UHGV virus genome: UHGV-0142836
Reading direction: 5' to 3' (one strand)
DNA: 10,854 bases
Source: a virus
The notes under the pieces were generated by a model. The model was not told the origin of the DNA. It searched no databases and saw only the letters and a program-made list of their open reading frames with translations. Made by a program: the position numbers and the translations under genes. Shown here piece by piece: positions 1 through 10,854 of the stretch. Position 1 is the stretch's first letter; each line of letters begins with the position of its first letter.

Positions 1-692
1 TCATAGTTCCTTCGTAGTTCCTCTTAAAAAATCACTTACAGACACCTTAATATCTATACAGATTTCACGTAGAACACGATTAGTGCGTAAAACAGCTATT
101 ATGTTAAAAACACACTGTATACGTATCAGTACTGATTTATAAGGGTTTTGTGTATTTGAAGATAAGAGGCTATACAGCACCTTGAGAGCATGTCTTCTAA
201 GTCATTGATACATAAGGTCACAGAAGTTTGTGTCTGTTACAGAGAAAACTGGATAGGACTTCACAGAACTACAAAATGTTACAGCTATTGATAGGTGAAA
301 TCTTCTTGATAGATGCTTTGAAGTGTGGTGAAGGTTTCTTGAGGTGGAATTAACAGATGCTATGAAGAAAGTCAATAGTTGGTTATAGATATTTTAACTG
401 CTTTTGCAAAGGGGGTGCTATATCGTGAATCTGGGGTACTTAACAGCCATCAATCATGAGGTAGATTCTACCGAATCAACTGTGTAGATATTTTTAAGAT
501 TATCGGTGAAGGGGGAATGCAGAGGGGGTACTACGATTTTTATAAAAATTTTCAGAAGCTAAATAACTACTGTACAGATTTTATACAACTCTACCAAACA
601 TCATAGAAAGCTCTGTAGCGAGTTTTAACCCCATTTTTAGGGGTAGTCTATAGGTATGTACCGCCCACCTTTAAATAAAGGGGTAAAATCGC

Positions 693-723
693 TTAGAATG
701 CGTTACAGAGCGTCTGAGAAGCT
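693..723. repeat. Solo copy of an R2 arm (see R2 copies at 1949-2047 and 3622-3750)
   Basis: 'ttagaatgcgttacagagcgtctgagaagct' matches the reverse complement of 3622-3652 with about 4 central mismatches, and also resembles the R2 right-arm core 'cgttacagagcg'. Confidence 0.5.
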
Positions 724-1490
724 ATATTCACAGATTTTACTAAAACCTCAGACTTTCTAAGTGGTCTTTTTAACAGGAGGGTTCTTTCTCATGTATCACC
801 CTCTCTTCCCACTGAGTAAGCTACACAGACCTAGAGAACATGCCTTCACAACACCTATATAGGTCAGATTTAGAGGGTTTTGATAGAATCTTCAAAGGTA
901 CTTGACAGATAACTATGAAGTTGTTAGGAAGGAGTGTTTAACGGGGGAAGAGATACGATATAACCCGAAGGGGAGAGTATCATCTTAACAGTGATTGTAA
1001 GAGTAAAACTGAAAAGATACTTAACAGAACTACCAAGAGGGAGCGATAAGACCAGAGGTAGTGACCTTGTTAAACAGTTCGTTTCAAAGCTCTTAAGAAT
1101 CTGTTAAGTAAGGTCATGTGAACAATCTTACCATTTTGTCAATGCTTTTGTCTTTGACCTAAATCAATAAAATGTATCGTTTGATATGTTTTTAAACAAA
1201 ATAGTTAAAAATCTTTTTAGAGGTGCGCTTCGCTTGTGTCACCAATATCATTCTTCCCTGTCTAAGAGGGAAGTTACAGGGCATTTCAAAGCCCTCAATA
1301 GGCAAACCGAGGAATACGGAAAACCGAGGGAAGAAAAACTATTGTGATTACCTTGAACAAGGTCTGTAAAGGTCGTTTAAGAGGTCGGTTAAGAAGGGAG
1401 CTTCCCTTTCTTGGGTGTCGCTCTTCTCCCGCTTAGTGGATTGATTAAGAAGACCTCTGAAGTTTCTCTGTGAAGGTGCTGAACAGCTAT

Positions 1491-1543
1491 TATATTGGGT
1501 GATTACAACTTATTGAAAAATAAGAACTTTTATAAGTTACTGT
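1491..1543. repeat. 53-bp direct repeat, copy 1, containing palindrome 'cttattgaaaaataag' (1509-1524)
   Basis: First 42 bp are identical to 1585-1626, then 2 mismatches in the next 11 bp; internal 6-bp inverted repeat CTTATT/AATAAG around GAAA, followed by AACTT-ttat-AAGTT. Confidence 0.7.
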
Positions 1544-1584
1544 TAAGGTTACAGAGTTAACTGTGAAGAGACTTGTCAGTCTTA

Positions 1585-1637
1585 TATATTGGGTGATTAC
1601 AACTTATTGAAAAATAAGAACTTTTAGAAATTACTGT
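1585..1637. repeat. 53-bp direct repeat, copy 2 (94 bp downstream of copy 1)
   Basis: Same sequence as 1491-1543, including the internal palindromes. Confidence 0.7.
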
Positions 1638-1719
1638 CAGAGAGGTGAATACTTGATAGATACAGCTTTCCGGTTCTGTCAAGCTATTTTTTAATAGATA
1701 GCACAAAATGCTAAAGATA

Positions 1720-1749
1720 CCCCCCTATACATCTCGTACAGGGGGTTTT
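1720..1749. terminator. Probable bidirectional intrinsic terminator
   Basis: GC-rich hairpin 'cccccctatac-atctc-gtacaggggg' (about 9 of 10 bp paired) followed by TTTT on the plus strand and by a T-rich run on the minus strand; lies 10 bp beyond the stop of the minus-strand gene at 1759. Confidence 0.45.
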
Positions 1750-1758
1750 GGAGGGGGT

Positions 1759-1935
1759 TTAGCGGGGGTCTGTATGGTCATTATCCTTAAGGTCAAGCGT
1801 CCATGTACGACCGAACAGTTTAAAGACAACAAGCACCCTGACGAGGACGTAGCGAAGTAGCAGACCTGCAATAAGTCCAATACCTCCACCAGCCCACACA
1901 TCAGGTGACCCCAATTCCTGAGGGAGATTTACCAT
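1759..1935 (-). CDS. Small hydrophobic membrane protein, 58 aa (MVNLPQELGSPDVWAGGGIGLIAGLLLRYVLVRVLVVFKLFGRTWTLDLKDNDHTDPR)
   Basis: The six-frame ORF runs 1759-1977 from a TTG; the in-frame ATG at 1935-1933 is preceded by AAGGA about 7 nt upstream. One predicted transmembrane stretch (GGGIGLIAGLLLRYVLVRVLVVF). Terminator immediately downstream. Function not recognised. Confidence 0.4.
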   Translation of the reverse strand: MVNLPQELGSPDVWAGGGIGLIAGLLLRYVLVRVLVVFKLFGRTWTLDLKDNDHTDPR

Positions 1936-1948
1936 TAGTTTTCCTTGT

Positions 1949-2047
1949 AAGACGCTCTCAATCGCATTCTGACACAAAAAGTATCTGACCTTATGAGTTG
2001 ACCTGAAGAGGCCGTTTAACTCGTTACAGAGCGATTGAAGAGGTCTG
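1949..2047. repeat. R2 element copy 1: inverted-repeat arms (1951-1970 and 2014-2047) around a ~40-bp spacer
   Basis: Left arm 'gacgctctcaatcgcattct' and right arm 'gtttaactcgttacagagcgattgaagaggtctg' are near-identical to the arms at 3631-3650 and 3717-3750; the arms are imperfect reverse complements of each other (GCGATTGA core). Confidence 0.6.
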
Positions 2048-2079
2048 TGTGCAATGCAATAACCATGTGACCAAATACA

Positions 2080-2118
2080 TAGTTGATTCGGTTAGTTGGG
2101 ATTGTACCAACCCCTATC
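2080..2118. repeat. att-like composite repeat (left copy): 18-bp part A at 2080-2097 fused to 26-bp part B at 2093-2118
   Basis: 'tagttgattcggttagtt' is identical to 10825-10842; 'tagttgggattgtaccaacccctat' matches 10529-10554 with 2 mismatches. A degenerate A-like sequence 'catagttccttcgtagttcc' also sits at 2-21. Confidence 0.45.
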
Positions 2119-2204
2119 GAATAAACCTCATAGCCACGCCTTTATATTTTACTCTCCCCATAAACCCATTATACCACAGATGTTAATAAAATGTTAAAAA
2201 ATAC

Positions 2205-2233
2205 TTGACATTAGCCTTTGAAAATGCTAGGAT
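2205..2233 (+). promoter_or_regulatory. Sigma70-like promoter P1: TTGACA, 17-bp spacer, TGcTAGGAT (extended -10)
   Basis: TTGACA at 2205-2210 and TAGGAT at 2228-2233 with TG at 2225-2226; followed by 'ttgtatatat', which is shared with promoter P2 at 4197-4225. Confidence 0.4.
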
Positions 2234-2283
2234 TGTATATATGAGTTAACAGAGAATTAACAATTATAAGGGCCAGCTTATGA

Positions 2284-2835
2284 ATGAACGACAGAGAATT
2301 TCAAAAGTTTCTTGAAGAATCCAAGAGACGCAACAGACACAACGGTTACAGCCACACAAACAACCCCACCAGATACGAAGTCCCAGCCTTTACCAAATCC
2401 GAACGTAAAAACATTGAAGCGGTCATTCGTAGCATTACGCCACGAGACAGATTTATGCCAGCACGCAAAGAAAAAGAGAATACTTTAAAAACTTTCTTGA
2501 TGGGCTTTGATTCTTACGAGCAACTGCCAGCAAAAATTGAAGATTTAATTATCGGCACTTGTCGCAGCTTTGGAAGAGATAATTATCACCGAAAAGTTTT
2601 CTATTTACTACGAAATATTGACAAGATTAGCTCAAGCACAATAACAAGTCATCTACAGCGTCAAGCGACCCGATTAAGCCATGAGCTACCAAGCGATAAA
2701 TATTGCGCTAACTTAGCCACTATTTGCATGAAAGTTATTGAGACAATTAATCATCATGCGGAAATGGGAAATATCAGCCTTACGACAAGTGAGCCAGACT
2801 TTGAGTTTGACCCGTATATTTTGGAGGAATTTTAA
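2284..2835 (+). CDS. Hypothetical protein, 183 aa
   Basis: Intact ORF downstream of P1; its stop is 1 nt before the next start. No recognisable motif; weak Shine-Dalgarno. Confidence 0.55.
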   Translation: MNDREFQKFLEESKRRNRHNGYSHTNNPTRYEVPAFTKSERKNIEAVIRSITPRDRFMPARKEKENTLKTFLMGFDSYEQLPAKIEDLIIGTCRSFGRDNYHRKVFYLLRNIDKISSSTITSHLQRQATRLSHELPSDKYCANLATICMKVIETINHHAEMGNISLTTSEPDFEFDPYILEEF

Positions 2836-2836
2836 A

Positions 2837-3115
2837 ATGAATAAACACACTCTAACCCGTATTTCAGAGGAAGCTTTTAACGAGCTTAACAGAATTAAAC
2901 GAGCGACTAACCTGCCTCATCAGACTATTATGCAGCTTGCAATTGCTAAAGAGGTCACTGAGTCGGATTTACTGAAATATCCAGTTTCTAAAGGTCGCAG
3001 ACACATCAGAATTACTAAGAACGCTCTGGCTACTCTGAAGGAACTGAACAACTTTAAAATTGATATTGCCCGACTATTGAGCATCAAGATTCACAAGCTA
3101 TCGATGGGGGTTTAA
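2837..3115 (+). CDS. Putative small DNA-binding protein, 92 aa, possibly ribbon-helix-helix
   Basis: GGAGG at 2823-2827 sits 9 nt before ATG 2837. The track ORF (2738-3115) extends upstream inside the previous gene, so the internal ATG is preferred. N-terminus 'HTLTRISEEAFNELNRIKRATNLPHQTIMQLAIAKE' fits a strand-helix-turn-helix RHH pattern (inference only). Confidence 0.45.
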   Translation: MNKHTLTRISEEAFNELNRIKRATNLPHQTIMQLAIAKEVTESDLLKYPVSKGRRHIRITKNALATLKELNNFKIDIARLLSIKIHKLSMGV

Positions 3116-3318
3116 TGCTATGCATTACCTTTGAATACCACACAGATAAAATGATTCGCTACATCTCCGACCTCCTGATTAAAGGAAACGGATTCGGTGA
3201 CATCCATAACTCAAAAGATATTTTCATTAAAGCCATTGGCCCAAATGAAACACTGAAAACAGCAGTTAAACCGGAATGGTTTGAACGTCATAAGATTGAA
3301 TTAGGTTATTGGGGGTGA
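3115..3318 (+). CDS. Hypothetical protein, 67 aa
   Basis: Start overlaps the previous stop (TAATG at 3113-3117), indicating translational coupling. No recognisable motif. Confidence 0.45.
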   Translation: MLCITFEYHTDKMIRYISDLLIKGNGFGDIHNSKDIFIKAIGPNETLKTAVKPEWFERHKIELGYWG

Positions 3319-3327
3319 GGAGGTTTT

Positions 3328-3615
3328 ATGAAACCTTGGCATGAAGATGTTAGAAGATATTTTGCAGAACACCTTATCTATGATGAATCCAGTGATTCCC
3401 TGTGCTGGTCTGATGGAGAGTCAGTCACGATAAATACCGACGACTACGGCAACAAAACATTTAATATAGGTCGATACACATTCTATGTGAAATATGTTGT
3501 CTGGTTCCTTTATCATGGCTATCAATCCAATAAGCAAATTATCCATCGAAATGGTAACAGAGCCGATACCAGACCAAAAAACCTTATGCAAGTCCGAGAC
3601 TTTAAGAGAAATTAG
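3328..3615 (+). CDS. Small HNH-family endonuclease, 95 aa
   Basis: GAGGAGG immediately upstream of ATG 3328. C-terminal 'YVVWFLYHGYQSNKQIIHRNGNRADTRPKNLMQV' matches the phage HNH pattern (HRlvw...H-x-dGn-x-dNr-x-NL). Confidence 0.55.
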   Translation: MKPWHEDVRRYFAEHLIYDESSDSLCWSDGESVTINTDDYGNKTFNIGRYTFYVKYVVWFLYHGYQSNKQIIHRNGNRADTRPKNLMQVRDFKRN

Positions 3616-3621
3616 AAAAAC

Positions 3622-3750
3622 AGCTTCTCAGACGCTCTCAATCGCATTCTAACGCAAAAAACTACCTTGTTTTAGGGTGGGTAATACCACTGTACAGGCT
3701 ACCCCTGAAAAAGACTGTTTAGCTCGTTACAGAGCGATTGAGGAGGTCTG
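3622..3750. repeat. R2 element copy 2: arms at 3631-3650 and 3717-3750 around a ~66-bp spacer containing hairpin GGGTA...TACCC and palindrome CTGTACAG
   Basis: Arms near-identical to copy 1 while the spacer is unrelated; the element ends 5 nt before the AAGGAG Shine-Dalgarno of the gene at 3772. Confidence 0.6.
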
Positions 3751-3771
3751 GTAAAAAGGAGATTTTAAGAA

Positions 3772-4095
3772 ATGAACAATTACGAATTACAGATTTTCGT
3801 TGATGCCGACACTGCTATGATGATTCAGGCTTTCAGTGATTCCGGTGTATCAATTGACTTTGATAAATTACTAAAGCTGATGGCTGATAATGCAGAAAAC
3901 ATCTCTGACTTTATTCAGTCGGTGGAGTTTAACGAGCCTCGAATGATGCTACCAATTACAGACTCAAACATGAAAAGATTGGTTATTGAGCAAACGAACA
4001 AATACAGTATTTCCCCAGAGCAATTTTTGAAAGGTGCTGTGACAATCCTGTACAGCGATAATATTTTGGTGACGGATTCTGTGAGGATTCACTAA
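3772..4095 (+). CDS. Hypothetical protein, 107 aa
   Basis: AAGGAG sits 10 nt upstream of ATG 3772; intact ORF; no recognisable motif. Confidence 0.55.
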   Translation: MNNYELQIFVDADTAMMIQAFSDSGVSIDFDKLLKLMADNAENISDFIQSVEFNEPRMMLPITDSNMKRLVIEQTNKYSISPEQFLKGAVTILYSDNILVTDSVRIH

Positions 4096-4172
4096 TGACG
4101 TTAATTGTATTATGGACGCTGCTAGGGCTATTTGTTGGTTGCTGGATGGGTAACACAGTAAATAAGAATTGA
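4095..4172 (+). CDS. Candidate 25-aa hydrophobic micropeptide (MTLIVLWTLLGLFVGCWMGNTVNKN)
   Basis: ATG overlaps the upstream stop (TAATG at 4093-4097), the same coupling geometry as at 3113-3117; single hydrophobic helix. Below the ORF-track size cutoff, hand-translated. Confidence 0.25.
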   Translation: MTLIVLWTLLGLFVGCWMGNTVNKN

Positions 4173-4196
4173 TGTTACCAATCTGTTAAAAAGCTG

Positions 4197-4225
4197 TTGA
4201 CAAATAACATTGAGCATGACATAAT
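4197..4225 (+). promoter_or_regulatory. Sigma70-like promoter P2: TTGACA, 17-bp spacer, CATAAT
   Basis: TTGACA at 4197-4202 and CATAAT at 4220-4225, followed by 'ttgtatatat' exactly as in P1. Confidence 0.4.
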
Positions 4226-4232
4226 TGTATAT

Positions 4233-4416
4233 ATAGGGAGAGCAATTCTCTCTTATTTTCTTTCAATAATCCGATGGATGGATATTCTGAGTTGGAAAGG
4301 TGCAATGCTTTTCGTCATGGCCTTTCAGTTTAGTCTGAGAGGCTATCTCAAAAAGTGCTTAATCATTCATTGAACCCTTTACAGCTTTGCCCTAACTCAT
4401 GATTAGGGCTTTCTTT
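4233..4416 (+). ncRNA. Candidate small RNA or structured leader transcribed from P2, ending at the first terminator
   Basis: About 185 nt between the predicted start site and the terminator at 4389-4416; no ORF with a ribosome-binding site; hairpin GAGAG-caatt-CTCTC directly after the predicted start. Confidence 0.25.
4389..4416 (+). terminator. Intrinsic terminator T1
   Basis: Perfect 7-bp stem GCCCTAA / TTAGGGC with a 7-nt loop, followed by TTTCTTT. Confidence 0.5.
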
Positions 4417-4485
4417 AAGAGTTTTTAAACAGAGCTTTTAAAGAAAGTTTTTCCTGAAACTTCGTTAACGTTAAAGCAAACCTTC

Positions 4486-4519
4486 AAAGCCCTTCACAGA
4501 TTATGTTTAGGGCTTTTTT
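4486..4519 (+). terminator. Intrinsic terminator T2
   Basis: Stem 'aaagccct' / 'agggcttt' with a 15-nt loop, followed by a T-run; its 3' half 'tttagggcttt' repeats T1. Confidence 0.45.
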
Positions 4520-4629
4520 CAGCTTTTAAAAAGCATACTTGGCAAACCGCCTTTTAAGCCTCTTCTAAGTTCGTAGGATGTCAGGTGTGCTTTTTAAAAA
4601 CTGAATATTACTTAGAAGAGGAAAATGAA

Positions 4630-5337
4630 ATGGAAAATCTATATATTAGCGGTAGAAAGGTTGATAGCTTCGGTGACTGGTCGCCACAGACTGAACATCC
4701 AGCTATCACTATTCAGCGTCAAGAGCATGACAAGCGCATTGAGCTTGAGCAATCGCTAAAGATGTCACCAAAAACAACCATCTTTGTGTCTCCTGAACCT
4801 CAAGAGATGCCTGATGTTTGCAAGGGTGAAGCATTACTTGAGCTTGAAAAGAAATATTACCCACTGCTGAAAGCACAAAGAATTAAACTTGATGACGCTT
4901 ACAGCAAAGTTACCCTGATGCAATCAGCTATTGAGCCATCAGAATTTGAGATTCAGGATGAATTGTCACAGAAACCATTTGTCTATTACCAATACGAAGA
5001 CAATGATGGTTTTGGTACTTTTCCTGAGAATATCCCAGACGTGATTAATAATCTTCCTGATGGATATCGAATTGTGAAAATGATTGGAGCTTCAAGAGGT
5101 GATGGTCAGTTTATTTACATGACCAATAAGAGCGATGAAGAACTCCGTGAAATTGCCAGACAGAACATCTTAGCATCACGTAACAAGCAACTTGAAAATG
5201 TTAAGTTGTGTCTCTTAAGAGAGCTTCAGGCTATGAAAGACCTTATTTCTGCATATGAAACGCAGAAGAAGATTGCTATGCAGGCTGATATTGAGCAGTT
5301 AGTGAAGATTTCTCAGAAGTATAGCAAGGTACTTTAA
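4630..5337 (+). CDS. Hypothetical protein, 235 aa, with a predicted coiled-coil C-terminus
   Basis: The six-frame ORF begins at GTG 4585; the in-frame ATG at 4630 has a GAGGA Shine-Dalgarno about 8 nt upstream. No recognisable domain. Confidence 0.55.
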   Translation: MENLYISGRKVDSFGDWSPQTEHPAITIQRQEHDKRIELEQSLKMSPKTTIFVSPEPQEMPDVCKGEALLELEKKYYPLLKAQRIKLDDAYSKVTLMQSAIEPSEFEIQDELSQKPFVYYQYEDNDGFGTFPENIPDVINNLPDGYRIVKMIGASRGDGQFIYMTNKSDEELREIARQNILASRNKQLENVKLCLLRELQAMKDLISAYETQKKIAMQADIEQLVKISQKYSKVL

Positions 5338-5361
5338 CTAATAATTAAAAGGAGGTGATGA

Positions 5362-5577
5362 ATGATTGATTTGCAACAGCGTTATGAAACTATTAAGTCG
5401 GCTTGCAAAAACTTAAAGTTACAAACTAAGCCAGCCTTAAGAATTAAAACCAAACGTCAAGTTATCACCTCACACAAACCAAAAACACGCAAGATTCCAA
5501 AGTGGTGTATCGACCGTATCCCTTCTGATGCCCAAATCATAGGTGAAACGGAATTACATTATCTTGTCAGACATTAA
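5362..5577 (+). CDS. Hypothetical basic protein, 71 aa
   Basis: Strong Shine-Dalgarno AAGGAGGTGA before ATG 5362; Lys/Arg-rich; terminator follows. Confidence 0.5.
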   Translation: MIDLQQRYETIKSACKNLKLQTKPALRIKTKRQVITSHKPKTRKIPKWCIDRIPSDAQIIGETELHYLVRH

Positions 5578-5624
5578 AAAGATTGGTTGGGTGTATGAGA
5601 TAGGTTCTATCGAATCTATAACAC

Positions 5625-5668
5625 GGGGAGAGATTATCGATATTATTCGGTAGTTTCTCCCTTTTTTG
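5625..5668 (+). terminator. Intrinsic terminator after the 71-aa gene
   Basis: Stem GGGAGA (5626-5631) / TCTCCC (5656-5661), extendable with G-U pairs, followed by TTTTTT at 5662-5667. Confidence 0.5.
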
Positions 5669-5684
5669 TATATGAGATAGTCTT

Positions 5685-5769
5685 CTATCGAATCCTATGT
5701 GCTACGTGAAATCTTCTGAACAGATATACCCACCAAAAATTATTTTTTACGTAGCTCACGCTTAACAGA
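5685..5769 (+). repeat. R1 element copy a: conserved stem-loop (GCTACGTGAA 5701-5710 pairing with TTTACGTAGC 5745-5754) plus box 'tcacgcttaacaga', 16 nt before ATG 5785
   Basis: About 85% identical over ~85 bp to 7957-8034, with the same spacing to the downstream start codon. Confidence 0.65.
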
Positions 5770-5784
5770 GGTGAAATATGAACA

Positions 5785-7875
5785 ATGGCACAATTTAAAG
5801 TTGATAGTTTTATCGTTGAGCTAGGCTTCAGCGAGAGCGTTATTAAGGGCTTGCAAAGAGTTGAAAAGGCAGCTTTGCAGTCAGCACAAAGAATTGAAAA
5901 GAACCTAAATAAAGGTTTTAGGATTAATACAAAGCAGCTTGATAGTAATTTAACGGCTTCTTTAGGGCAGCTTGAAAGAAAGTTTAATAAGACTTTTGAT
6001 AAGATTGAACAGAGAGCAAGAAATACTAAAGCTTTCCAGTTTACAACCAGATTTAATGACACTGTTAATCCTCCAAAACAATCAAGGCAACCACGAATTA
6101 GCGGAAACAGAGCAATCACAGCAGCGCATAGCGTGAATATGTCTAAGCTTGGTGATATTAATCCGCTGATGGCTAAAATGTTTAAAGCACAGTATTACAG
6201 CTTAAGCGGTAAGGCTGGTAATATTGGAAGTGAAAAGTTTAACGCTGAACTTGCAAAATTAAATCAATCTCTTCGTGAAACGTTGAATAAACTCAGGTCA
6301 CAGACAAAGACCACCAGCAAAAACAATCACAGTGAAAATGCTTCGAATGGTCTGGATGTATTAGCTACGAGTGCAATCAAAGCAGGTACAGCCATTTATA
6401 GTTTTCAGACAGCCTTAGAAGCTTACAAGAAGGTTATGGAGGTTGGTCTGAAAAAAGAAGCATCACAACGAGCGGCACAATTCGTTTTAGGTGATGAAGG
6501 TGCTAAACGAGCTACAGAATTTGTGAAGAATCTTGCTAATAATACAGGTGTTGACCAGATTGAGACATTAAGCAGCTTTGCTAAGTTTTCCGCTGGTGCT
6601 GGTGATATGAATGCAGACCAGAAAGAATCCTTATTTAGTAATGTGATTGGTACATCCCGACTAATGGGTTTAAGCACTGATGAGATTAACGGGATTCTAA
6701 AAGCTTTCGAGCAGATGGCTTCTAAAGGGAAGATTCAGGCTGAAGAGCTACGTGGTCAATTAGGGGACAGAATGGCAGGTGCTTTTCAGTTATTTGCCAG
6801 AAGCCTTGGGATGACTACAGAGCAATTAGATGCAGCTATGAAGAACGGTAAAGTTCTTTCTAAAGATGTTCTTCCTAAAGTATCCGCTGAAATGGGAAGG
6901 ATGATTGATAAAGCTGGTGGATGGGAAAAGATTATTAACTCTACTCAGACGCAGTTAGGCCGCCTTTCTAATTCATGGAATAATAATCTGGCCTTAATGT
7001 TCGATGGTTCACAGGAAGGTTTAACAGACTTTACAAGGTCACTGACTAATTTACTTAATTCGCTAGGTGGGCAATCTAAAAATCTTGGTGAACATTTTGG
7101 CGACTTGATGAAAAGTATGTCAAACGGTATTGATGATTTAACCACGATTAGCTACCGAGTGCAGGGATTCTTTGACAGAGTGACCCTTGCTTACAGAGAA
7201 TTAAATGACACTCAAAAAGCTGTAGCTGATGGTATCGCAAATGGCCTGTTAAGTGCATTAAAGGGACTTGCTGGTATTGTTGCTGTAAGGTCTGGTATTG
7301 GTGCTGTAGGTGGCATCTGGAACTTAATTAGGGCTATTTCCACGCTTGGAAATGTAGCAAATACAGCAGCGGGAAGAATCAATTCACGTTCTGGTACTGG
7401 TAGTGTTGAAGGTGGTAAAGGAAAATTATCTGTAGCTGATGCAATTACCAAAGTAATGATTGTTGGTATGGCAACTGATGTGATTAACTCCATTGTTAAA
7501 CCGTTCTATGAACGTCAGATGAGTAAGTCAGATAATCCAATTGACAAAGTTGTAAGGTCAAAGGTGGAACCCACAGACCAAGCATTGACTGGTGACATGA
7601 ACTCTTTAGCTGCTGTTTTATGGGCTATGGTTCAGGGCAAATCAAAGGATGTTCCACAGCTTTCACCTGAAGCATTAAATAATCTGAAAGGTCGAGTGGA
7701 AACATTCACACAAGATTTAAAGGTTATCAAGCCGTCAGTAAACATTCAGCCTCAGACAATCAATATCACAACTCAGACGGTACTTGATGGAAAGGTTATT
7801 GATGAAAGAACCACATCGCATATTAATCGTATGCAGGAAGATACCTTGATTAGCTCAGCTTACCCAGAGGAATAA
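5785..7875 (+). CDS. Protein with a phage tail tape-measure-like domain, 696 aa
   Basis: The segment 'FEQMASKGKIQAEELRGQLGDRMAGAFQLFARSLGMTTEQLDAAMKNGKVLSKDVLPKV' resembles the conserved tape-measure domain of lambda-like phages; Gly/Ala-rich hydrophobic stretch 'GLLSALKGLAGIVAVRSGIGAVGG'. Unusually short for a tape measure and lacking neighbouring tail genes. Confidence 0.5.
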   Translation: MAQFKVDSFIVELGFSESVIKGLQRVEKAALQSAQRIEKNLNKGFRINTKQLDSNLTASLGQLERKFNKTFDKIEQRARNTKAFQFTTRFNDTVNPPKQSRQPRISGNRAITAAHSVNMSKLGDINPLMAKMFKAQYYSLSGKAGNIGSEKFNAELAKLNQSLRETLNKLRSQTKTTSKNNHSENASNGLDVLATSAIKAGTAIYSFQTALEAYKKVMEVGLKKEASQRAAQFVLGDEGAKRATEFVKNLANNTGVDQIETLSSFAKFSAGAGDMNADQKESLFSNVIGTSRLMGLSTDEINGILKAFEQMASKGKIQAEELRGQLGDRMAGAFQLFARSLGMTTEQLDAAMKNGKVLSKDVLPKVSAEMGRMIDKAGGWEKIINSTQTQLGRLSNSWNNNLALMFDGSQEGLTDFTRSLTNLLNSLGGQSKNLGEHFGDLMKSMSNGIDDLTTISYRVQGFFDRVTLAYRELNDTQKAVADGIANGLLSALKGLAGIVAVRSGIGAVGGIWNLIRAISTLGNVANTAAGRINSRSGTGSVEGGKGKLSVADAITKVMIVGMATDVINSIVKPFYERQMSKSDNPIDKVVRSKVEPTDQALTGDMNSLAAVLWAMVQGKSKDVPQLSPEALNNLKGRVETFTQDLKVIKPSVNIQPQTINITTQTVLDGKVIDERTTSHINRMQEDTLISSAYPEE

Positions 7876-7899
7876 ACAATGTTAGAACTACTAATATTT

Positions 7900-7917
7900 A
7901 TTGCCACACATGGCAAT
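7900..7917. repeat. Perfect palindrome ATTGCCA-caca-TGGCAAT just downstream of the 696-aa gene
   Basis: 7-bp arms with a 4-nt spacer; possible weak terminator or operator. No clear T-tract. Confidence 0.3.
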
Positions 7918-7956
7918 CTATTAATCTTTATCTAGTATGACGATTCAACTATGAAT

Positions 7957-8034
7957 AGTCGAATGCTACGTGATTTCTTCTGAACAGATACCAACATCAA
8001 AAATTAGATTTCACGTAGCTCACGCTTAACAGAA
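7957..8034 (+). repeat. R1 element copy b: stem GCTACGTGA (7965-7973) / TCACGTAGC (8011-8019), box 'tcacgcttaacaga' (8020-8033), 15 nt before ATG 8049
   Basis: Perfect 9-bp stem with a 37-nt loop whose sequence ('tcttctgaacagata...caaaaatta') is conserved with copy a. Confidence 0.65.
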
Positions 8035-8048
8035 TAGGAATAACAACA

Positions 8049-8819
8049 ATGTTTGACACAAAGCAAATTAGATACTCAGGTAAAGATGGTATCTATTTTC
8101 ACCTTAGAGATAATGTAGAATCTTTTCTTGCCTTAACAGCTACTGAACAGATGGACTATGACAGCCCTATGATGGTGACAACTCAGGCTATGCAATCAGG
8201 GCAAACCGTCACAGATAATGTTCAGAGAGCACCTAAGACCATCTCTATTAGCGGTGTTGTAGTGGTTGATTCGACGGGTTCAATTCTATTAACCAGACAG
8301 GGGCAACTTGTAGAGACCTTTATTTCTACGGTTGAACAATGGCGAGACCAGAAGCAAATCATCACTATTGTTTGTAGAGATGGAATAGCTATCACTGATA
8401 GTATCATTACTCAGTTTAAAGCGAGTAAAGAGCATACCATTGCTAATGGTCTTCGTATTCAGATGACCTTCCAAGGTGTAGAATTTCGTTCAATCGTAGG
8501 TCAAACTGATATTTCGGCTGCAACTGGAAAAGCCGCGACTACGAATGATGGTGGTGCTACCAGTAAAAAGAATACAGGGAATACTACGACAAGTTTAGGT
8601 AATGGTATGTTGCTGTGTCAGGAGTTATATAATCGCTCTACGAGTGAACTCACTAATGAGCAACTTCAAGCCCGTATCAATTGTGGTAGAAGTGTCAAAG
8701 TTGAGAACGGAAAAAGCACCTTCTCAGATGCCGCTAATGAGCAGGCTTCAAAAGTGCTTAAGTCGGGTAATGCTTTACGGAAATTTAGTGTGAATCCGAA
8801 TAAGAAGGGCACTTATTGA
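8049..8819 (+). CDS. Hypothetical protein, 256 aa, with a Thr/Gly/Ser-rich central region
   Basis: Intact ORF immediately after R1b; no recognisable motif. A distal-tail or other structural role is conceivable only from its position after the tape-measure-like gene. Confidence 0.55.
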
Positions 8820-8828
8820 GACATAAAA

Positions 8829-8846
8829 AGGGGCTTCATAGCCCCT
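8829..8846. terminator. Bidirectional terminator between the convergent 256-aa gene and the recombinase gene
   Basis: Perfect stem AGGGGC / GCCCCT with a 6-nt loop, flanked by AAAAA upstream (a T-run on the minus strand, so it reads as a terminator for the recombinase transcript). Confidence 0.5.
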
Positions 8847-8851
8847 GAAAA

Positions 8852-10372
8852 TTACAGTTGATAAGCGTCAATATCCAGTAGCTCTTTATCAGCAATTTCA
8901 AAGATTGGTGACCCATCATTTAGCGGTAACGGGTTTGTAGGTATGGTGATTTTAGTGTCGTTCTGTAGCGTTACAGTTACCGAATCCTTACCCAATGTAA
9001 GCCCTTTTAGATGTTTGGACAAAATCAACTGACACTCGACACGACCTGCTTTAGTTGTCAGGTCAATATCTTTAAGCTGGGGTAGTTCCTTATCAGTGAG
9101 TGAAGCCTTACGCCTCATGTTATCAATCGTGGTCTGTAGCTCTGTGCGCTTCTGGTTAAGTCCCTTCACCTGTGTTTTCAACTCTGTAATATCATCCATT
9201 TCAAGAAGTAGGGCGGTAGCTTTCTTGATTCTAGCTGTGACAATTTCAACCTCATGCTGTAACGCTGCAATCTTCCTCTCTGATTCTCCATCATTCCCCA
9301 CGTCAATCATCCCCAGAAAATTATCAATCATCCATCGGTCAAACGGTTTACGCTTCAACGGTGGAACATCACAGCGACCGTCAGGATTGTTATTGCACCT
9401 GTAAACTCCTGCATACTTATTCTTAGTCCCTGTAGGGTGAACACTAGCCCCACACTGACACCGGAATAATCCCTTGAAGATGTTAATCGTTAATGGGTTA
9501 TCACTTGCAGGTGTACGGCCTTTACGATTTTTATCGAGGATTTCTTGAGCTTTATTGAACGTTGCAGCATCTATAGCGGCTTCGTAGTAGTTCGGTATAG
9601 CGGGGCGGTCATTGCGCTGTGATGCTGGTAACGTGCCTATTGTTGTCTCCGACCTTAAGATGGTGCGTACAGAGTGGACACTAAACCCGTTAGCATCTTT
9701 ACGCCGTGAGAATGAACTAATGTTATTAGCCTGTAGGTGACGTGCAATGTTATGTAGACTTTCACCATCTAGCAGCAGTTTGAAAATCAGTCTTACAGTC
9801 TCAGCGTGTTCATTGACTTCAAAAGTCTCAGGGTCAATCCATCCGGGGACCATCTTTGTTAAACGTTGTTTACCAGCAAGGGCAAGTTTTGCACGTTGCC
9901 CCCATTTCTGAGAAACACGGAAAGACTTCTGTTTACTCTCCTGATGCGCTAGGTAGCTTTTAACCCGCTGAATGATTGAGATTCCTAAATCATCGGATAG
10001 AGCATCCCTTGTGTAGATTAGCCCATCCTGTAGAGTGTGAATCTCGATACCATGAGCAATAATGCGGTTCATCAAGGCTTCTGTTTCAAGGTGTTCTAAG
10101 CGGCCTATACGGTCGATACTCTCAACAAGCAAAATCGTACCTTTTGAAAACTCCCCAGACTCAATACGGGCTAACATGTCACCAAACTGACCAGTAAGGT
10201 GCTTACCTTTGTAACCGGATAGACCCTCATCACTGAAAGACGCTACTACTTGAGCATCGCTATTCTTCTTCAACCATTGCTTGAACAGGTCATTTTGTCG
10301 TCTGGTTGAATCTGCACCTTCAGCGCCTTGTATGGCTGAACTGTACCGAAGGTATGTAATTACGCTTCTCAT
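8852..10372 (-). CDS. Large serine recombinase (phage or element integrase), 506 aa
   Basis: N-terminal resolvase-type catalytic domain (YLRYSS...Q with the Ser nucleophile, DEGLSGYKG, IDRIGR); a Cys cluster (CQCGASVH...YRCNNNPDGRCD) consistent with a zinc ribbon; C-terminal coiled-coil segment. Confidence 0.9.
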   Translation of the reverse strand: MRSVITYLRYSSAIQGAEGADSTRRQNDLFKQWLKKNSDAQVVASFSDEGLSGYKGKHLTGQFGDMLARIESGEFSKGTILLVESIDRIGRLEHLETEALMNRIIAHGIEIHTLQDGLIYTRDALSDDLGISIIQRVKSYLAHQESKQKSFRVSQKWGQRAKLALAGKQRLTKMVPGWIDPETFEVNEHAETVRLIFKLLLDGESLHNIARHLQANNISSFSRRKDANGFSVHSVRTILRSETTIGTLPASQRNDRPAIPNYYEAAIDAATFNKAQEILDKNRKGRTPASDNPLTINIFKGLFRCQCGASVHPTGTKNKYAGVYRCNNNPDGRCDVPPLKRKPFDRWMIDNFLGMIDVGNDGESERKIAALQHEVEIVTARIKKATALLLEMDDITELKTQVKGLNQKRTELQTTIDNMRRKASLTDKELPQLKDIDLTTKAGRVECQLILSKHLKGLTLGKDSVTVTLQNDTKITIPTNPLPLNDGSPIFEIADKELLDIDAYQL

Positions 10373-10528
10373 GGTGATAAACTCTCATGCAATTGATTAT
10401 CATTTAAAGATAAGCTTATAACCGTTATGGCTAATGCTACAATGCCGAATAGCTACAATACAATGACCCTTGAATGAAGTCTATTCGGTTTTCTAAGAGA
10501 CCTGTTAAAAACAGGACAATATCAGGTG

Positions 10529-10554
10529 TAGTTGGGCTTGTTCCAACCCCTATG
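10529..10554. repeat. att-like repeat part B (right copy), containing hairpin GTTGG-gcttgtt-CCAAC
   Basis: 'tagttgggcttgttccaacccctat' matches 2093-2118 with 2 mismatches; lies about 155 bp upstream of the recombinase start. Confidence 0.4.
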
Positions 10555-10824
10555 ACTATGCAATTTTCCAAGTATCTAAGCAGTTTTACACAGATTCTAT
10601 GCAGTATCGGTATAGTCCCTTTTTATCATAACTTATTGAAATATATAAAGAATATGTGAAGTCCCTTTTCAGGGTAAACTGTATCGTGTTAGTCGTCCCT
10701 CTCCAGACTCCTAGAAAAGTGCTATATACAGGAGTATATAACGCTATATAGATGTTTGGTCACCATACGTTACAGTTGCAAGAGATAACAATCAGCTATG
10801 TGAAAGTTAGGAGGTGATGGTTAT

Positions 10825-10842
10825 AGTTGATTCGGTTAGTTC
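10825..10842. repeat. att-like repeat part A (right copy), 18 bp identical to 2080-2097
   Basis: Exact 18-bp direct repeat about 8.75 kb from its partner; flanking sequence differs on both sides, as expected for a recombination junction. Confidence 0.45.
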
Positions 10843-10854
10843 TAGGAATCAACC

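What the first reader, a model, noticed from the sequence alone, without database searches (positions are those of the whole stretch)
4093..4172. Unannotated 25-aa hydrophobic micropeptide coupled to the 107-aa gene
The reading frame starts on the TAATG stop-start overlap, the same geometry used between the genes at 3113-3117, and encodes a single hydrophobic helix. Such peptides fall below standard ORF cutoffs and are easily missed.
Basis: seen in the sequence. Interest (0 to 1): 0.35.

Follow-up and report, generated by a model that had tools for sequence, protein, structure and literature searches.

The report
Conserved unannotated 25-aa membrane micropeptide gene
A 78-base reading frame that no annotation pipeline calls is a real, selected gene for a 25-residue membrane-type peptide, the last gene of an operon in a phage-satellite-like island found in about a tenth of complete E. 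coli genomes; what the peptide does is unknown.

Summary
TAA (4093-4095) of the 107-aa gene overlaps ATG (4095-4097) of a 25-codon frame ending at 4172 (MTLIVLWTLLGLFVGCWMGNTVNKN). On one sequence this is not beyond chance. Comparison settles it.

- Of 119 assessable related loci (Escherichia, Citrobacter, metagenomes, IMG/VR), 117 keep an intact hydrophobic ORF at this spot.
- All intact copies overlap the stop of the preceding gene (TAATG or ATGA) and have a Shine-Dalgarno motif inside that gene.
- pN/pS is 0.32 in this frame, against 0.93-1.36 in four other frames and 0.48 in one antisense frame that has no conserved start. The neighbouring 107-aa gene gives 0.38.
- Leu10 is invariant through six codons. 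W7, G11, G15, C16 and N20 are invariant within the main allele.
- Three alleles (25, 21 and 22 aa) all encode one hydrophobic helix with a small-xxx-small motif.

The ORF is absent from RefSeq annotations, from a 15-billion-protein collection, and from Pfam, NCBIfam, PHROGs and PADLOC. It is coupled to whatever gene precedes it, not specifically to the 107-aa gene, which models as a tandem ribbon-helix-helix fold.

Function is inferred only. It is the island's only membrane-type product apart from a borderline tape-measure segment. The closest precedent is LidI of the Vibrio PLE satellite. This is a new member of a known kind, of moderate interest.

The parts
3772..4095 (+). 107-aa gene that precedes the micropeptide gene; modelled as a single-chain tandem ribbon-helix-helix (beta-alpha-alpha twice) DNA-binding fold
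4083..4086 (+). Shine-Dalgarno motif (GAGG) for the micropeptide, inside the last codons of the 107-aa gene, 8 nt before the ATG
   Evidence: Sequence. An SD-like motif lies in the -16..-5 window in 118 of 118 loci with an ORF, across five unrelated upstream 3' ends: GAGG, GGTGG, GAGG (..PYSEVM class), GGAG (97-aa class) and GAGGG (74-aa gene). In the predicted RNA fold the motif sits in a small GUGA/UCAC hairpin.
4093..4097 (+). TAATG stop-start overlap (TAA of the 107-aa gene, ATG of the micropeptide gene)
   Evidence: TAATG in 114 related loci and the equivalent ATGA overlap in 4.
4095..4172 (+). Micropeptide gene, 25 codons plus TGA: MTLIVLWTLLGLFVGCWMGNTVNKN. Hydrophobic residues 1-19 with W7, L10, G11xxxG15xxxG19, then a polar tail NTVNKN
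   Evidence: 117 of 119 relatives intact. pN/pS 0.32 against 0.93-1.36 in four other frames and 0.48 in one antisense frame. Leu10 is invariant through 6 codons, G11 and G15 through 3 codons each. Alleles B (MELVIICFVLIGMIAGASIKV) and C (MTLIILWVLLGIVLSFAISMER) occupy the same slot.
4173..4200 (+). Nearly invariant spacer between the ORF and the next promoter, holding three TGTTNA repeats in 11-bp phase (4173, 4184, 4195). Possible binding site for a regulator; this is an inference
   Evidence: Sequence. The distance from the ORF stop to TGTTGACA is fixed at 22 nt (allele A), 23 nt (B) and 19 nt (C). This stretch was used as the search pattern, so its conservation in the pattern-selected loci is partly by construction. 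It is also kept in loci found through the upstream protein.
4197..4225 (+). Strong sigma-70-type promoter, TTGACA-17-CATAAT with TG extension, pointing away from the micropeptide gene towards the 235-aa, 71-aa, tape-measure and baseplate genes
   Evidence: 11 of 12 consensus matches; kept in all relatives.
4235..4253 (+). Hairpin followed by a T-run, about 60 nt after the micropeptide stop. Candidate terminator of the upstream operon and/or a 5' stem-loop of the transcript from the 4197 promoter
   Evidence: Terminator-like site. The stem is kept through different sequence versions among 64 distinct sequences: GGGAGAG/CTCTCT, GAGGATAG/CTATCC, GGAAGAG/CTCTTCC, GGGGAAG/TTCCCC.

Best explanation
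4095-4172 is a real protein-coding gene for a 25-residue single-helix membrane peptide. SHOWN BY COMPARISON: (1) The frame, ATG, length and hydrophobic character are under purifying selection. (2) The start always overlaps the stop codon of the preceding gene, with a Shine-Dalgarno motif inside that gene. (3) The gene is always the last cistron before the island's strong promoter. INFERRED: (4) Ribosomes finishing the upstream gene (here a tandem ribbon-helix-helix protein) restart at the overlapping AUG, so the peptide is made whenever this operon is translated. (5) Residues 1-19 insert into the inner membrane. In most alleles the only basic residue sits in the last three positions and acidic or neutral residues sit at position 2, so the favoured orientation is N-terminus out, C-terminus in. 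(6) The invariant W7, L10 and G11xxxG15 residues could form a helix-packing face. (7) The peptide is the only product of the island clearly hydrophobic enough for the membrane, and the island looks like a satellite of virulent Felix-O1-type phages. I therefore think the peptide is the island's membrane effector during helper infection. It would pack against itself or against a phage or host membrane protein to change the membrane potential or the timing of lysis (or DNA entry), as the once-unannotated LidI protein does for the Vibrio PLE satellite. My confidence in steps 1-3 is about 0.9, in 4-6 about 0.6, and in 7 about 0.25-0.3.
For: Selection: 82 copies of allele A give 55-56 distinct nucleotide sequences and 31 peptides. 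pS is 0.51, pN 0.16 and pN/pS 0.32. The other two forward frames carry stops in all sequences and give 1.04 and 1.36. The adjacent 107-aa gene gives 0.38 and the peptide gene in the same loci 0.30. Leu10 uses TTA, TTG, CTG, CTC, CTA and CTT; G11 and G15 use three codons each. Integrity: 117 of 119 loci are intact; the loci were chosen by the downstream promoter motif or by the upstream protein, never by the ORF. Independence from neighbours: homology to some genomes begins exactly at 4093 (H74-H79), where the upstream gene is only 26% identical. With a 74-aa gene inserted, the peptide gene is coupled to that gene. Alleles B and C differ in sequence but keep the overlap, the hydrophobic helix and a small-xxx-small motif (G12xxxG16; G11xxxS15xxxS19). 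The antisense ORF 3983-4156 has no conserved start or length, ranging from 0 to 57 aa. Sole membrane product. Island context: tape measure protein (PF20155), Dit-like baseplate protein 72% identical to Felixounavirus and Suspvirus proteins, large serine recombinase; relatives in 570 of 5426 complete E. coli genomes. Precedent: LidI genes were unannotated transmembrane ORFs found by synteny in PLE and are expressed on ICP1 infection (PMC7182436).
Against: There is no direct evidence of translation or membrane location; none can be obtained with these tools. No dedicated TM predictor was run, only hydropathy scales. In a Citrobacter freundii lineage (L126, the same context in 24 contigs) a 12-nt in-frame deletion removes the ATG and leaves ATT, so the gene can be lost or weakened. 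Two other copies are broken (L070, L097). The C. amalonaticus allele ends NAANGN with no basic residue, and allele C ends ER, which weakens the topology argument. Twelve of 25 second-codon positions vary, so the constraint is on character plus a few residues rather than the whole sequence. The pairwise pN/pS counts are not phylogenetically independent. GxxxG motifs are common in membrane helices. No endolysin, holin or spanin gene lies in the island, and no relative of the peptide was found in phages or plasmids, so the lysis or entry role rests on analogy only.
Confidence: 0.7

Rival explanations
1. The peptide is the toxin of a toxin-antitoxin-like addiction or abortive-infection pair. In this reading the upstream ribbon-helix-helix protein is the antitoxin or repressor, and the overlapping downstream hydrophobic peptide damages the membrane when the balance is lost.
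For: The gene order and the 1-base overlap match the usual antitoxin-then-toxin layout (own knowledge of type II systems). The 107-aa model's structural neighbours include many RHH antitoxins (TacA, MazE, ParD, KacA). The peptide resembles type I toxins in size and hydropathy (own knowledge of IbsC, ShoB, TisB).
Against: The pairing is not obligatory. A 74-aa gene can sit between the two, and the peptide gene is then coupled to it. The upstream gene can diverge to 26% identity while the peptide stays over 80% identical, which is the opposite of co-evolving partners. The whole 107-aa chain is taken up by the two RHH repeats, leaving no obvious toxin-binding tail. There is no antisense promoter over or beside the ORF. 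PADLOC and NCBIfam give no hit. The one deletion seen removes both genes together (L070), which is neutral evidence.
Confidence: 0.13
2. The ORF is a lipoprotein signal peptide. Residues 12-16 (L-F-V-G-C) would form a lipobox, and cleavage before Cys16 would release a lipidated 10-residue peptide, CWMGNTVNKN.
For: L12-F13-V14-G15-C16 fits the lipobox pattern (own knowledge of PROSITE PS51257). G15 and C16 are invariant in allele A.
Against: No allele has a basic residue in the N-terminal region; position 2 is T, G, M, A, D or E. Alleles B and C have no Cys at that place (B has only Cys7, not preceded by G, A or S; C has none), yet they occupy the same slot. Basic residues lie at the C-terminus, which favours the opposite orientation.
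Confidence: 0.05
3. The frame is translated, but the peptide itself does nothing. Translation to 4172 would only keep ribosomes on the end of the operon mRNA, protecting it from Rho or RNases, or influence the promoter and hairpin just downstream.
For: The fixed 19-23 nt distance from the stop codon to the -35 element. The proximity of the hairpin at 4235-4253.
Against: A purely positional role does not explain amino-acid-level selection: pN/pS 0.32, six Leu codons at position 10, glycines kept through three codons. It also does not explain why three different alleles all encode a hydrophobic helix.
Confidence: 0.05
4. The ORF is a chance reading frame. The DNA would be conserved for another reason, such as a protein-binding site, an upstream promoter element, or an antisense gene.
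For: Short hydrophobic ORFs and TAATG are both common in this AT-rich window. The antisense frame 2 is open over the core in all 56 sequences, with pN/pS 0.48.
Against: The region is not conserved as DNA (pS 0.51), and the changes are concentrated in synonymous positions of this frame only. The antisense ORF has no conserved start codon or length, 0-57 aa, and never an ATG. Allele replacement is bounded exactly by the ORF's start and stop. The SD motif is kept in five unrelated upstream contexts.
Confidence: 0.03

Closest known systems
LidI of the Vibrio cholerae PLE satellite (lysis-inhibition disruptor; PMC7182436)
   Same: A small transmembrane protein encoded by an integrative satellite of a virulent myovirus. 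It was missed by annotation, recognised through synteny, and has no homology to known families. It is the closest precedent for what a satellite's small membrane protein can do.
   Different: LidI is 66 or 121 aa against 21-25 aa here. The genomic position differs. Sequence similarity was not tested here. That the present island is a satellite, and that the peptide affects lysis, are both inferences.
Type I toxin peptides of enterobacteria (IbsC 19 aa, ShoB 26 aa, TisB 29 aa, Ldr 35 aa; own knowledge)
   Same: Size, a single hydrophobic helix, a short polar or charged C-terminal end, and frequent omission from annotation.
   Different: Those genes have their own promoter, a structured leader and an antisense RNA antitoxin. 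This ORF is the translationally coupled last cistron of an operon with no antisense promoter and no NCBIfam hit.
Chromosomal small inner-membrane proteins of E. coli that modulate larger membrane proteins (AcrZ, MgtS, CydX, MgrB; own knowledge)
   Same: Single-pass peptides under 50 aa that act by helix-helix contacts in the inner membrane, with conserved small residues on one face.
   Different: No sequence relation. Those are core-genome genes with their own translation signals. This one is confined to a mobile island and comes in cassette-like alleles.
Glycine-zipper / GxxxG helices of pinholins and other oligomerising membrane peptides (own knowledge: Russ & Engelman 2000; Kim et al. 2005)
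   Same: G11xxxG15xxxG19 in allele A, G12xxxG16 in B and G11xxxS15xxxS19 in C. G11 and G15 are invariant within allele A.
   Different: Holins are 60 aa or longer, have at least one further domain, and sit beside an endolysin gene. None of this applies here.
Stop-start overlapped (TAATG / ATGA) translationally coupled gene pairs
   Same: A one-base or four-base overlap with a Shine-Dalgarno motif inside the upstream gene, used twice in this operon (3113 and 4093).
   Different: Nothing unusual, except that the coupled product is only 25 residues and the upstream partner is interchangeable.

Membership tests
Protein-coding gene (as opposed to a chance ORF) | Reading frame, start codon and length kept in relatives chosen without reference to the ORF | tested here: met
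   117 of 119 assessable loci are intact, with one frameshift and one deletion. Three of four further Citrobacter loci are intact; one has lost its ATG.
Protein-coding gene (as opposed to a chance ORF) | Excess of synonymous over non-synonymous change in this frame only | tested here: met
   pN/pS is 0.32, against 1.04, 1.36, 0.93, 0.48 and 1.30 in the other five frames. The flanking 107-aa gene gives 0.38. Leu10 is encoded by six different codons.
Protein-coding gene (as opposed to a chance ORF) | Ribosome occupancy or a detectable product | not testable with these tools
   No expression data are available. The peptide strings are not found in the searchable literature.
Translationally coupled overlapping cistron | Start codon overlaps the stop codon of the preceding gene, with a Shine-Dalgarno motif 5-10 nt upstream | tested here: met
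   TAATG in 114 loci and ATGA in 4. An SD-like motif is present in 118 of 118 loci, in five unrelated upstream gene ends.
Single-pass small membrane protein | A hydrophobic stretch of about 17-20 residues sufficient to span the bilayer | tested here: met
   19-residue Kyte-Doolittle mean 1.93. Simple Hessa sums of -0.5 to -2.9 kcal/mol across five allelic variants. These are hydropathy scales only; no TM predictor or experiment.
Type I toxin-antitoxin toxin | Antisense or divergent small RNA antitoxin with its own promoter | tested here: not met
   No promoter-like site on the - strand over or next to the ORF. The nearest, at 4085-4058, scores 9 of 12 and points away. No Rfam family in the window. 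A consensus scan cannot exclude a weak promoter.
Type I toxin-antitoxin toxin | Own promoter and a long structured leader that controls translation | tested here: not met
   The ORF starts on the stop codon of the preceding gene in every locus.
Type I toxin-antitoxin toxin | Toxic when over-expressed | not testable with these tools
   This needs an experiment.
Holin / pinholin | Located in a lysis cassette with endolysin (and spanin) genes; typically 60 aa or longer | tested here: not met
   No lysis gene is recognised in the window. The only 'endolysin' label is a secondary PHROG hit of the Dit-like baseplate protein. The peptide is 21-25 aa.
Bacterial lipoprotein precursor | Lipobox [LVI][ASTVI][GAS]C | tested here: inconclusive
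   Allele A has L-F-V-G-C with G15 and C16 invariant. Alleles B and C have no such Cys.
Bacterial lipoprotein precursor | Basic N-terminal region before the hydrophobic core | tested here: not met
   No K or R occurs before the last three residues in any of about 40 variants.
PLE LidI family | Sequence homology to LidI | not tested
   LidI sequences were not retrieved. The paper reports 66-aa and 121-aa forms with no homology to other genes. The resemblance is functional and contextual only.
Ribbon-helix-helix DNA-binding proteins (applies to the 107-aa neighbour, not the peptide) | beta-alpha-alpha unit forming a two-stranded antiparallel ribbon, here two units in one chain | tested here: met
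   [not shown]

The most novel reading that the evidence does not exclude
The peptide is the single membrane effector of an undescribed family of E. coli and Citrobacter satellites that parasitise virulent Felix-O1-type (Ounavirinae) phages. In this reading its helix docks, through the W7/L10/GxxxG face, onto a helper-phage membrane protein (holin or antiholin) or onto the inner-membrane route used by the incoming tape measure protein and DNA. It would thereby reset lysis timing or exclude superinfecting helper phage. The cassette-like allele replacement bounded exactly by the ORF (alleles A, B, C, and mosaic halves within A) would record an arms race with that partner.
Probability: 0.2. Interest if true: 0.7.

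Novelty: new member of a known kind. Interest (0 to 1): 0.42.

Why it matters
Small membrane peptides are systematically missed because gene finders discard ORFs this short. This one lies in an island family whose relatives occur in roughly one complete E. coli genome in ten, yet it appears in no protein database. It adds a well-supported case with three natural alleles, clear invariant residues to mutate, and a clean start-codon mutation that does not touch the neighbouring gene. If the island is a satellite of Felix-O1-type phages, which are used for Salmonella and E. coli typing, biocontrol and therapy, then its only membrane-type product is a first candidate for how it interferes with those phages. 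Even without a function, the gene should be added to annotations of these islands.

Tried and rejected
1. Family searches for the peptide found nothing usable. Pfam, NCBIfam and PADLOC gave no hit; PHROGs gave one insignificant hit (E 0.027).
2. tblastn against 50,697 phage and 72,556 plasmid records gave no match.
Distribution outside this island family is therefore untested.
4. Rfam on the whole window gave no family and ARAGORN found no tRNA.
5. The antisense ORF 3983-4156 was rejected because it has no conserved start or length.
6. A programmed frameshift fusing the peptide to the 107-aa protein was considered. I saw no slippery heptamer in the last 30 nt of the upstream gene and no fused homologue in the listed hits. 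This was by eye only.
7. Base-pairing between the 3' end of the ORF and the downstream transcript (4157-4167 with 4251-4261) was considered as an RNA antitoxin-like contact. It is AT-rich and does not visibly co-vary in variants, so I did not pursue it.
8. The first AlphaFold2 run, on close homologues only, gave pLDDT 42.7 and was discarded.
9. Profile search of the 107-aa family against PDB sequences gave only chance-level hits.
10. Internal-repeat detection by hhalign was not significant.
11. Literature searches found no description of the island or of the peptide.

Full report
**1. What is in the window**

The 10.85-kb window (37-45% G+C) carries a string of + strand genes:
- a 183-aa gene (2284-2835)
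- a 92-aa gene (2837-3115)
- a 67-aa gene (3115-3318)
- a 95-aa HNH endonuclease (3328-3615)
- the 107-aa gene (3772-4095)
- a roughly 235-aa gene (4630-5337)
- a 71-aa gene
- a 696-aa tape measure protein (PF20155)
- a 256-aa Dit-like baseplate protein (PF21821)
- on the - strand, a 506-aa large serine recombinase

The tail genes resemble those of Felix-O1-type phages. The DNA is about 75% identical, and the Dit-like protein is about 72% identical to proteins of Felixounavirus and Suspvirus phages.

Related islands are chromosomal and occur in 570 of 5426 complete E. coli genomes. In strain A0 34/86 the island lies between yciI and tonB. I read the element as a candidate phage satellite. That is an inference, and I found no paper describing it.

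**2. The observation**

TAA 4093-4095 ends the 107-aa gene. ATG 4095-4097 opens a 25-codon frame that ends with TGA at 4170-4172 and encodes MTLIVLWTLLGLFVGCWMGNTVNKN. The same TAATG geometry joins the genes at 3113-3117.

Residues 1-19 are hydrophobic, with a Kyte-Doolittle mean of 1.93. No other product of the window reaches the usual membrane-helix level; the tape measure protein peaks at 1.58.

On this sequence alone the ORF is unremarkable:
- The window holds 48 ATG-ORFs of 20-40 aa, and this one ranks second in hydropathy.
- There are 19 TAATG on the + strand.

**3. The comparative test**

I collected relatives in ways that do not depend on the ORF:
- 17 RefSeq E. coli loci, by blastn of the surrounding 941 nt or of the whole window.
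- 4 genome loci and 81 metagenome loci, by a pattern in the downstream promoter region.
- 13 IMG/VR loci, through the upstream protein.
- 10 loci, through divergent homologues of the upstream protein.

Of 122 promoter sites in the first 121 loci plus the window, 3 are too close to a contig end and 119 can be assessed. Of those 119:
- 117 have an intact hydrophobic ORF.
- 1 has an 11-nt deletion (L097).
- 1 has lost the 107-aa gene and most of the ORF through a deletion between GGGTGGGTAA microhomologies (L070).

Every ORF starts on the stop codon of the preceding gene: TAATG in 114 loci and ATGA in 4. Every one has an SD-like motif 5-16 nt upstream.

In Citrobacter, the C. braakii and C. amalonaticus copies are intact. 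A C. freundii lineage has a 12-nt in-frame deletion between two GTAAT repeats that removes the ATG.

**4. Codon-level evidence**

The 82 copies of the main allele give 55-56 distinct nucleotide sequences and 31 peptides.

| Frame or gene | pS | pN | pN/pS |
|---|---|---|---|
| ORF frame | 0.51 | 0.16 | 0.32 |
| Forward frame +2 (stops in all sequences) | 0.24 | 0.25 | 1.04 |
| Forward frame +3 (stops in all sequences) | 0.19 | 0.26 | 1.36 |
| Antisense frames 1 and 3 | – | – | 0.93 and 1.30 |
| Antisense frame 2 (open in all sequences) | 0.41 | 0.19 | 0.48 |
| Neighbouring 107-aa gene | 0.45 | 0.17 | 0.38 |
| Peptide gene in those same loci | 0.51 | 0.15 | 0.30 |

The antisense frame that stays open has no conserved start or length, ranging from 0 to 57 aa with no ATG.

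Leu10 is invariant although six different Leu codons are used. G11 and G15 are kept through three codons each, N20 through two. W7, C16 and N25 are also invariant. Replacements elsewhere are mostly I/V/L/M/A/F. These counts come from pairwise comparisons and are not phylogenetically independent. The frame control and the neighbouring-gene control share that weakness and still separate cleanly.

**5. Alleles and neighbours**

Three alleles occupy the same slot:
- A, 25 aa: the window's form.
- B, 21 aa: MELVIICFVLIGMIAGASIKV. It is bounded exactly by the start and stop codons, with identical flanks.
- C, 22 aa: MTLIILWVLLGIVLSFAISMER. It occurs in a more divergent island and uses an ATGA overlap.

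A and C share M1, L3, W7, L10 and G11. All three keep a small-xxx-small motif.

The upstream gene is interchangeable:
- In several genomes homology to the window begins exactly at 4093. There the upstream gene is a 101-102-aa homologue only 26% identical, while the peptide stays over 80% identical.
- In other islands a 74-aa gene is inserted, and the peptide gene is TAATG-coupled to that gene.

The peptide gene is therefore an independent unit. It is always the last cistron, 19-23 nt before the -35 element of the next promoter.

**6. The surroundings**

- *Downstream.* There are three TGTTNA repeats in 11-bp phase (4173, 4184, 4195) and a near-consensus promoter, TTGACA-17-TG-CATAAT, at 4197-4225. 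A hairpin at 4235-4253 is kept through different stem sequences. Two more terminator-like hairpins precede the 235-aa gene.
- *Antisense strand.* No promoter-like site covers the ORF. No Rfam family is present in the window.

**7. What it most likely is and does**

Shown by comparison: this is a selected protein-coding gene for a hydrophobic single-helix peptide, expressed through a conserved stop-start overlap with an internal SD motif.

Inferred:
- Translation occurs by reinitiation after the upstream gene.
- The peptide inserts into the inner membrane.
- The orientation is probably N-terminus out and C-terminus in, because basic residues occur only in the last three positions of most alleles. 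Exceptions are the C. amalonaticus form ending NAANGN and allele C ending ER.
- The W7/L10/G11xxxG15 residues could provide a helix-packing face.

The role is a guess from context. It is the island's only clearly membrane-type product. The best precedent is LidI of the Vibrio PLE satellite, a transmembrane ORF that was also unannotated until found by synteny and that is expressed on infection by the helper phage ICP1 (PMC7182436). I give about 0.25-0.3 to a lysis-timing, membrane-potential or entry-exclusion role.

**8. Rivals**

- *Toxin of a toxin-antitoxin-like pair with the RHH protein (0.13).* The layout and the RHH fold fit. The interchangeable and separable upstream partner, and the absence of co-variation, argue against it.
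- *Lipoprotein signal peptide (0.05).* Allele A has an L-F-V-G-C lipobox-like motif with invariant G15 and C16. No allele has a basic N-terminus, and alleles B and C have no Cys at that place.
- *Translation matters but the peptide does not (0.05).* This does not explain amino-acid-level selection or three hydrophobic alleles.
- *Chance ORF or DNA-level constraint (0.03).* This is contradicted by pS of 0.51 with frame-specific selection.

**9. Novelty and score**

The peptide belongs to no described family and is absent from about 15 billion predicted proteins. The kind of thing it is, a small unannotated membrane peptide on a mobile element, is well known. I call it a new member of a known kind and score interest at 0.42. 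It is solidly real, easy to test genetically, and sits in an island that appears undescribed, but it is not surprising in itself and its function is open.

Noticed in passing
window 1-10854 (recombinase 8852-10372 on the - strand; tape measure 5785-7875; Dit-like 8049-8819): The whole window is an integrative island with a large serine recombinase and only two recognisable structural genes. Both are close to Felix-O1-type (Ounavirinae) phage genes: about 75% at the DNA level and 72% at the protein level for the Dit-like gene. Relatives occur in 570 of 5426 complete E. coli genomes, and in Citrobacter and E. albertii. I found no paper describing it. It is a candidate undescribed satellite, or tail-interference element, of virulent Ounavirinae.
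   Followed up: partly
window 4173-4260: A near-consensus promoter (TTGACA-17-TG-CATAAT, 4197-4225) is preceded by three TGTTNA repeats in 11-bp phase. It is followed right at the start site by a hairpin (4235-4253) whose stem is kept by different sequences in 64 variants, only some of which have a T-run. Two further terminator-like hairpins (4389-4409, 4486-4516) lie before the 235-aa gene. This looks like a constitutive promoter held in check by attenuation or antitermination, in the manner of lambda Q. The neighbouring tandem-RHH protein could bind the repeats.
   Followed up: partly
window 3626-3750, 1944-2050, and a partial inverted copy at 640-760: A repeated element of about 125 nt folds into a long imperfect stem (CAGACGCTCTCAATCGC pairing with GCGATTGAGGAGGTCTG) with an inner GGGTGGG/CTACCCC hairpin. 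The z-score is -4.0 for the copy before the 107-aa gene, and the right arm contains a GAGGAGG. Each + strand copy precedes a gene block. Function unknown.
   Followed up: partly
window 1-2284: Over 2 kb has no convincing ORF. It contains a 53-nt direct repeat (1491-1543 and 1585-1637, 96% identical) and two promoter-like copies of ACTTGACA..TAGGA (880-929 and 2183-2232). The equivalent stretch is also unannotated in RefSeq (L001 4044-6073). It could hold an origin, a packaging site or RNA genes.
   Followed up: no
window 4559-4570 and 4610-4621; also 4518-4544 and 4579-4605: A perfect 12-nt inverted repeat (CCTCTTCTAAGT / ACTTAGAAGAGG) would sequester the Shine-Dalgarno motif of the 235-aa gene (ATG 4630). 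A 27-nt, 85% complementary inverted repeat surrounds it. This suggests translational control of the first gene after the 4197 promoter.
   Followed up: no
[not shown]
   Followed up: yes
L120 3327-3551, L121 718-942, L122 1825-2049, L126 1822-2046: Some islands carry an extra 74-aa gene (MKVQIDE..KRGIL, no family) between the RHH-like gene and the micropeptide gene. The upstream part of the operon is a variable region that holds an HNH endonuclease, a Dam methylase or genes of 130-258 aa in different islands.
   Followed up: partly
L126 around 2046-2060 (Citrobacter freundii); L070; L097: Three natural lesions of the micropeptide gene were seen. A 12-nt in-frame deletion between GTAAT repeats removes the ATG; the same gene context was reported for 24 contigs (23 similar places not shown). 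A deletion between GGGTGGGTAA microhomologies removes the 107-aa gene plus most of the ORF. An 11-nt deletion between GCTTGG repeats shifts the frame.
   Followed up: partly
window 4630-5337 (235-aa gene): PGAP names homologues of this protein 'transposase' in some genomes and 'hypothetical protein' in others. Pfam, NCBIfam, PHROGs and PADLOC give no support, and tblastn finds nothing in phages. The label looks unfounded.
   Followed up: partly
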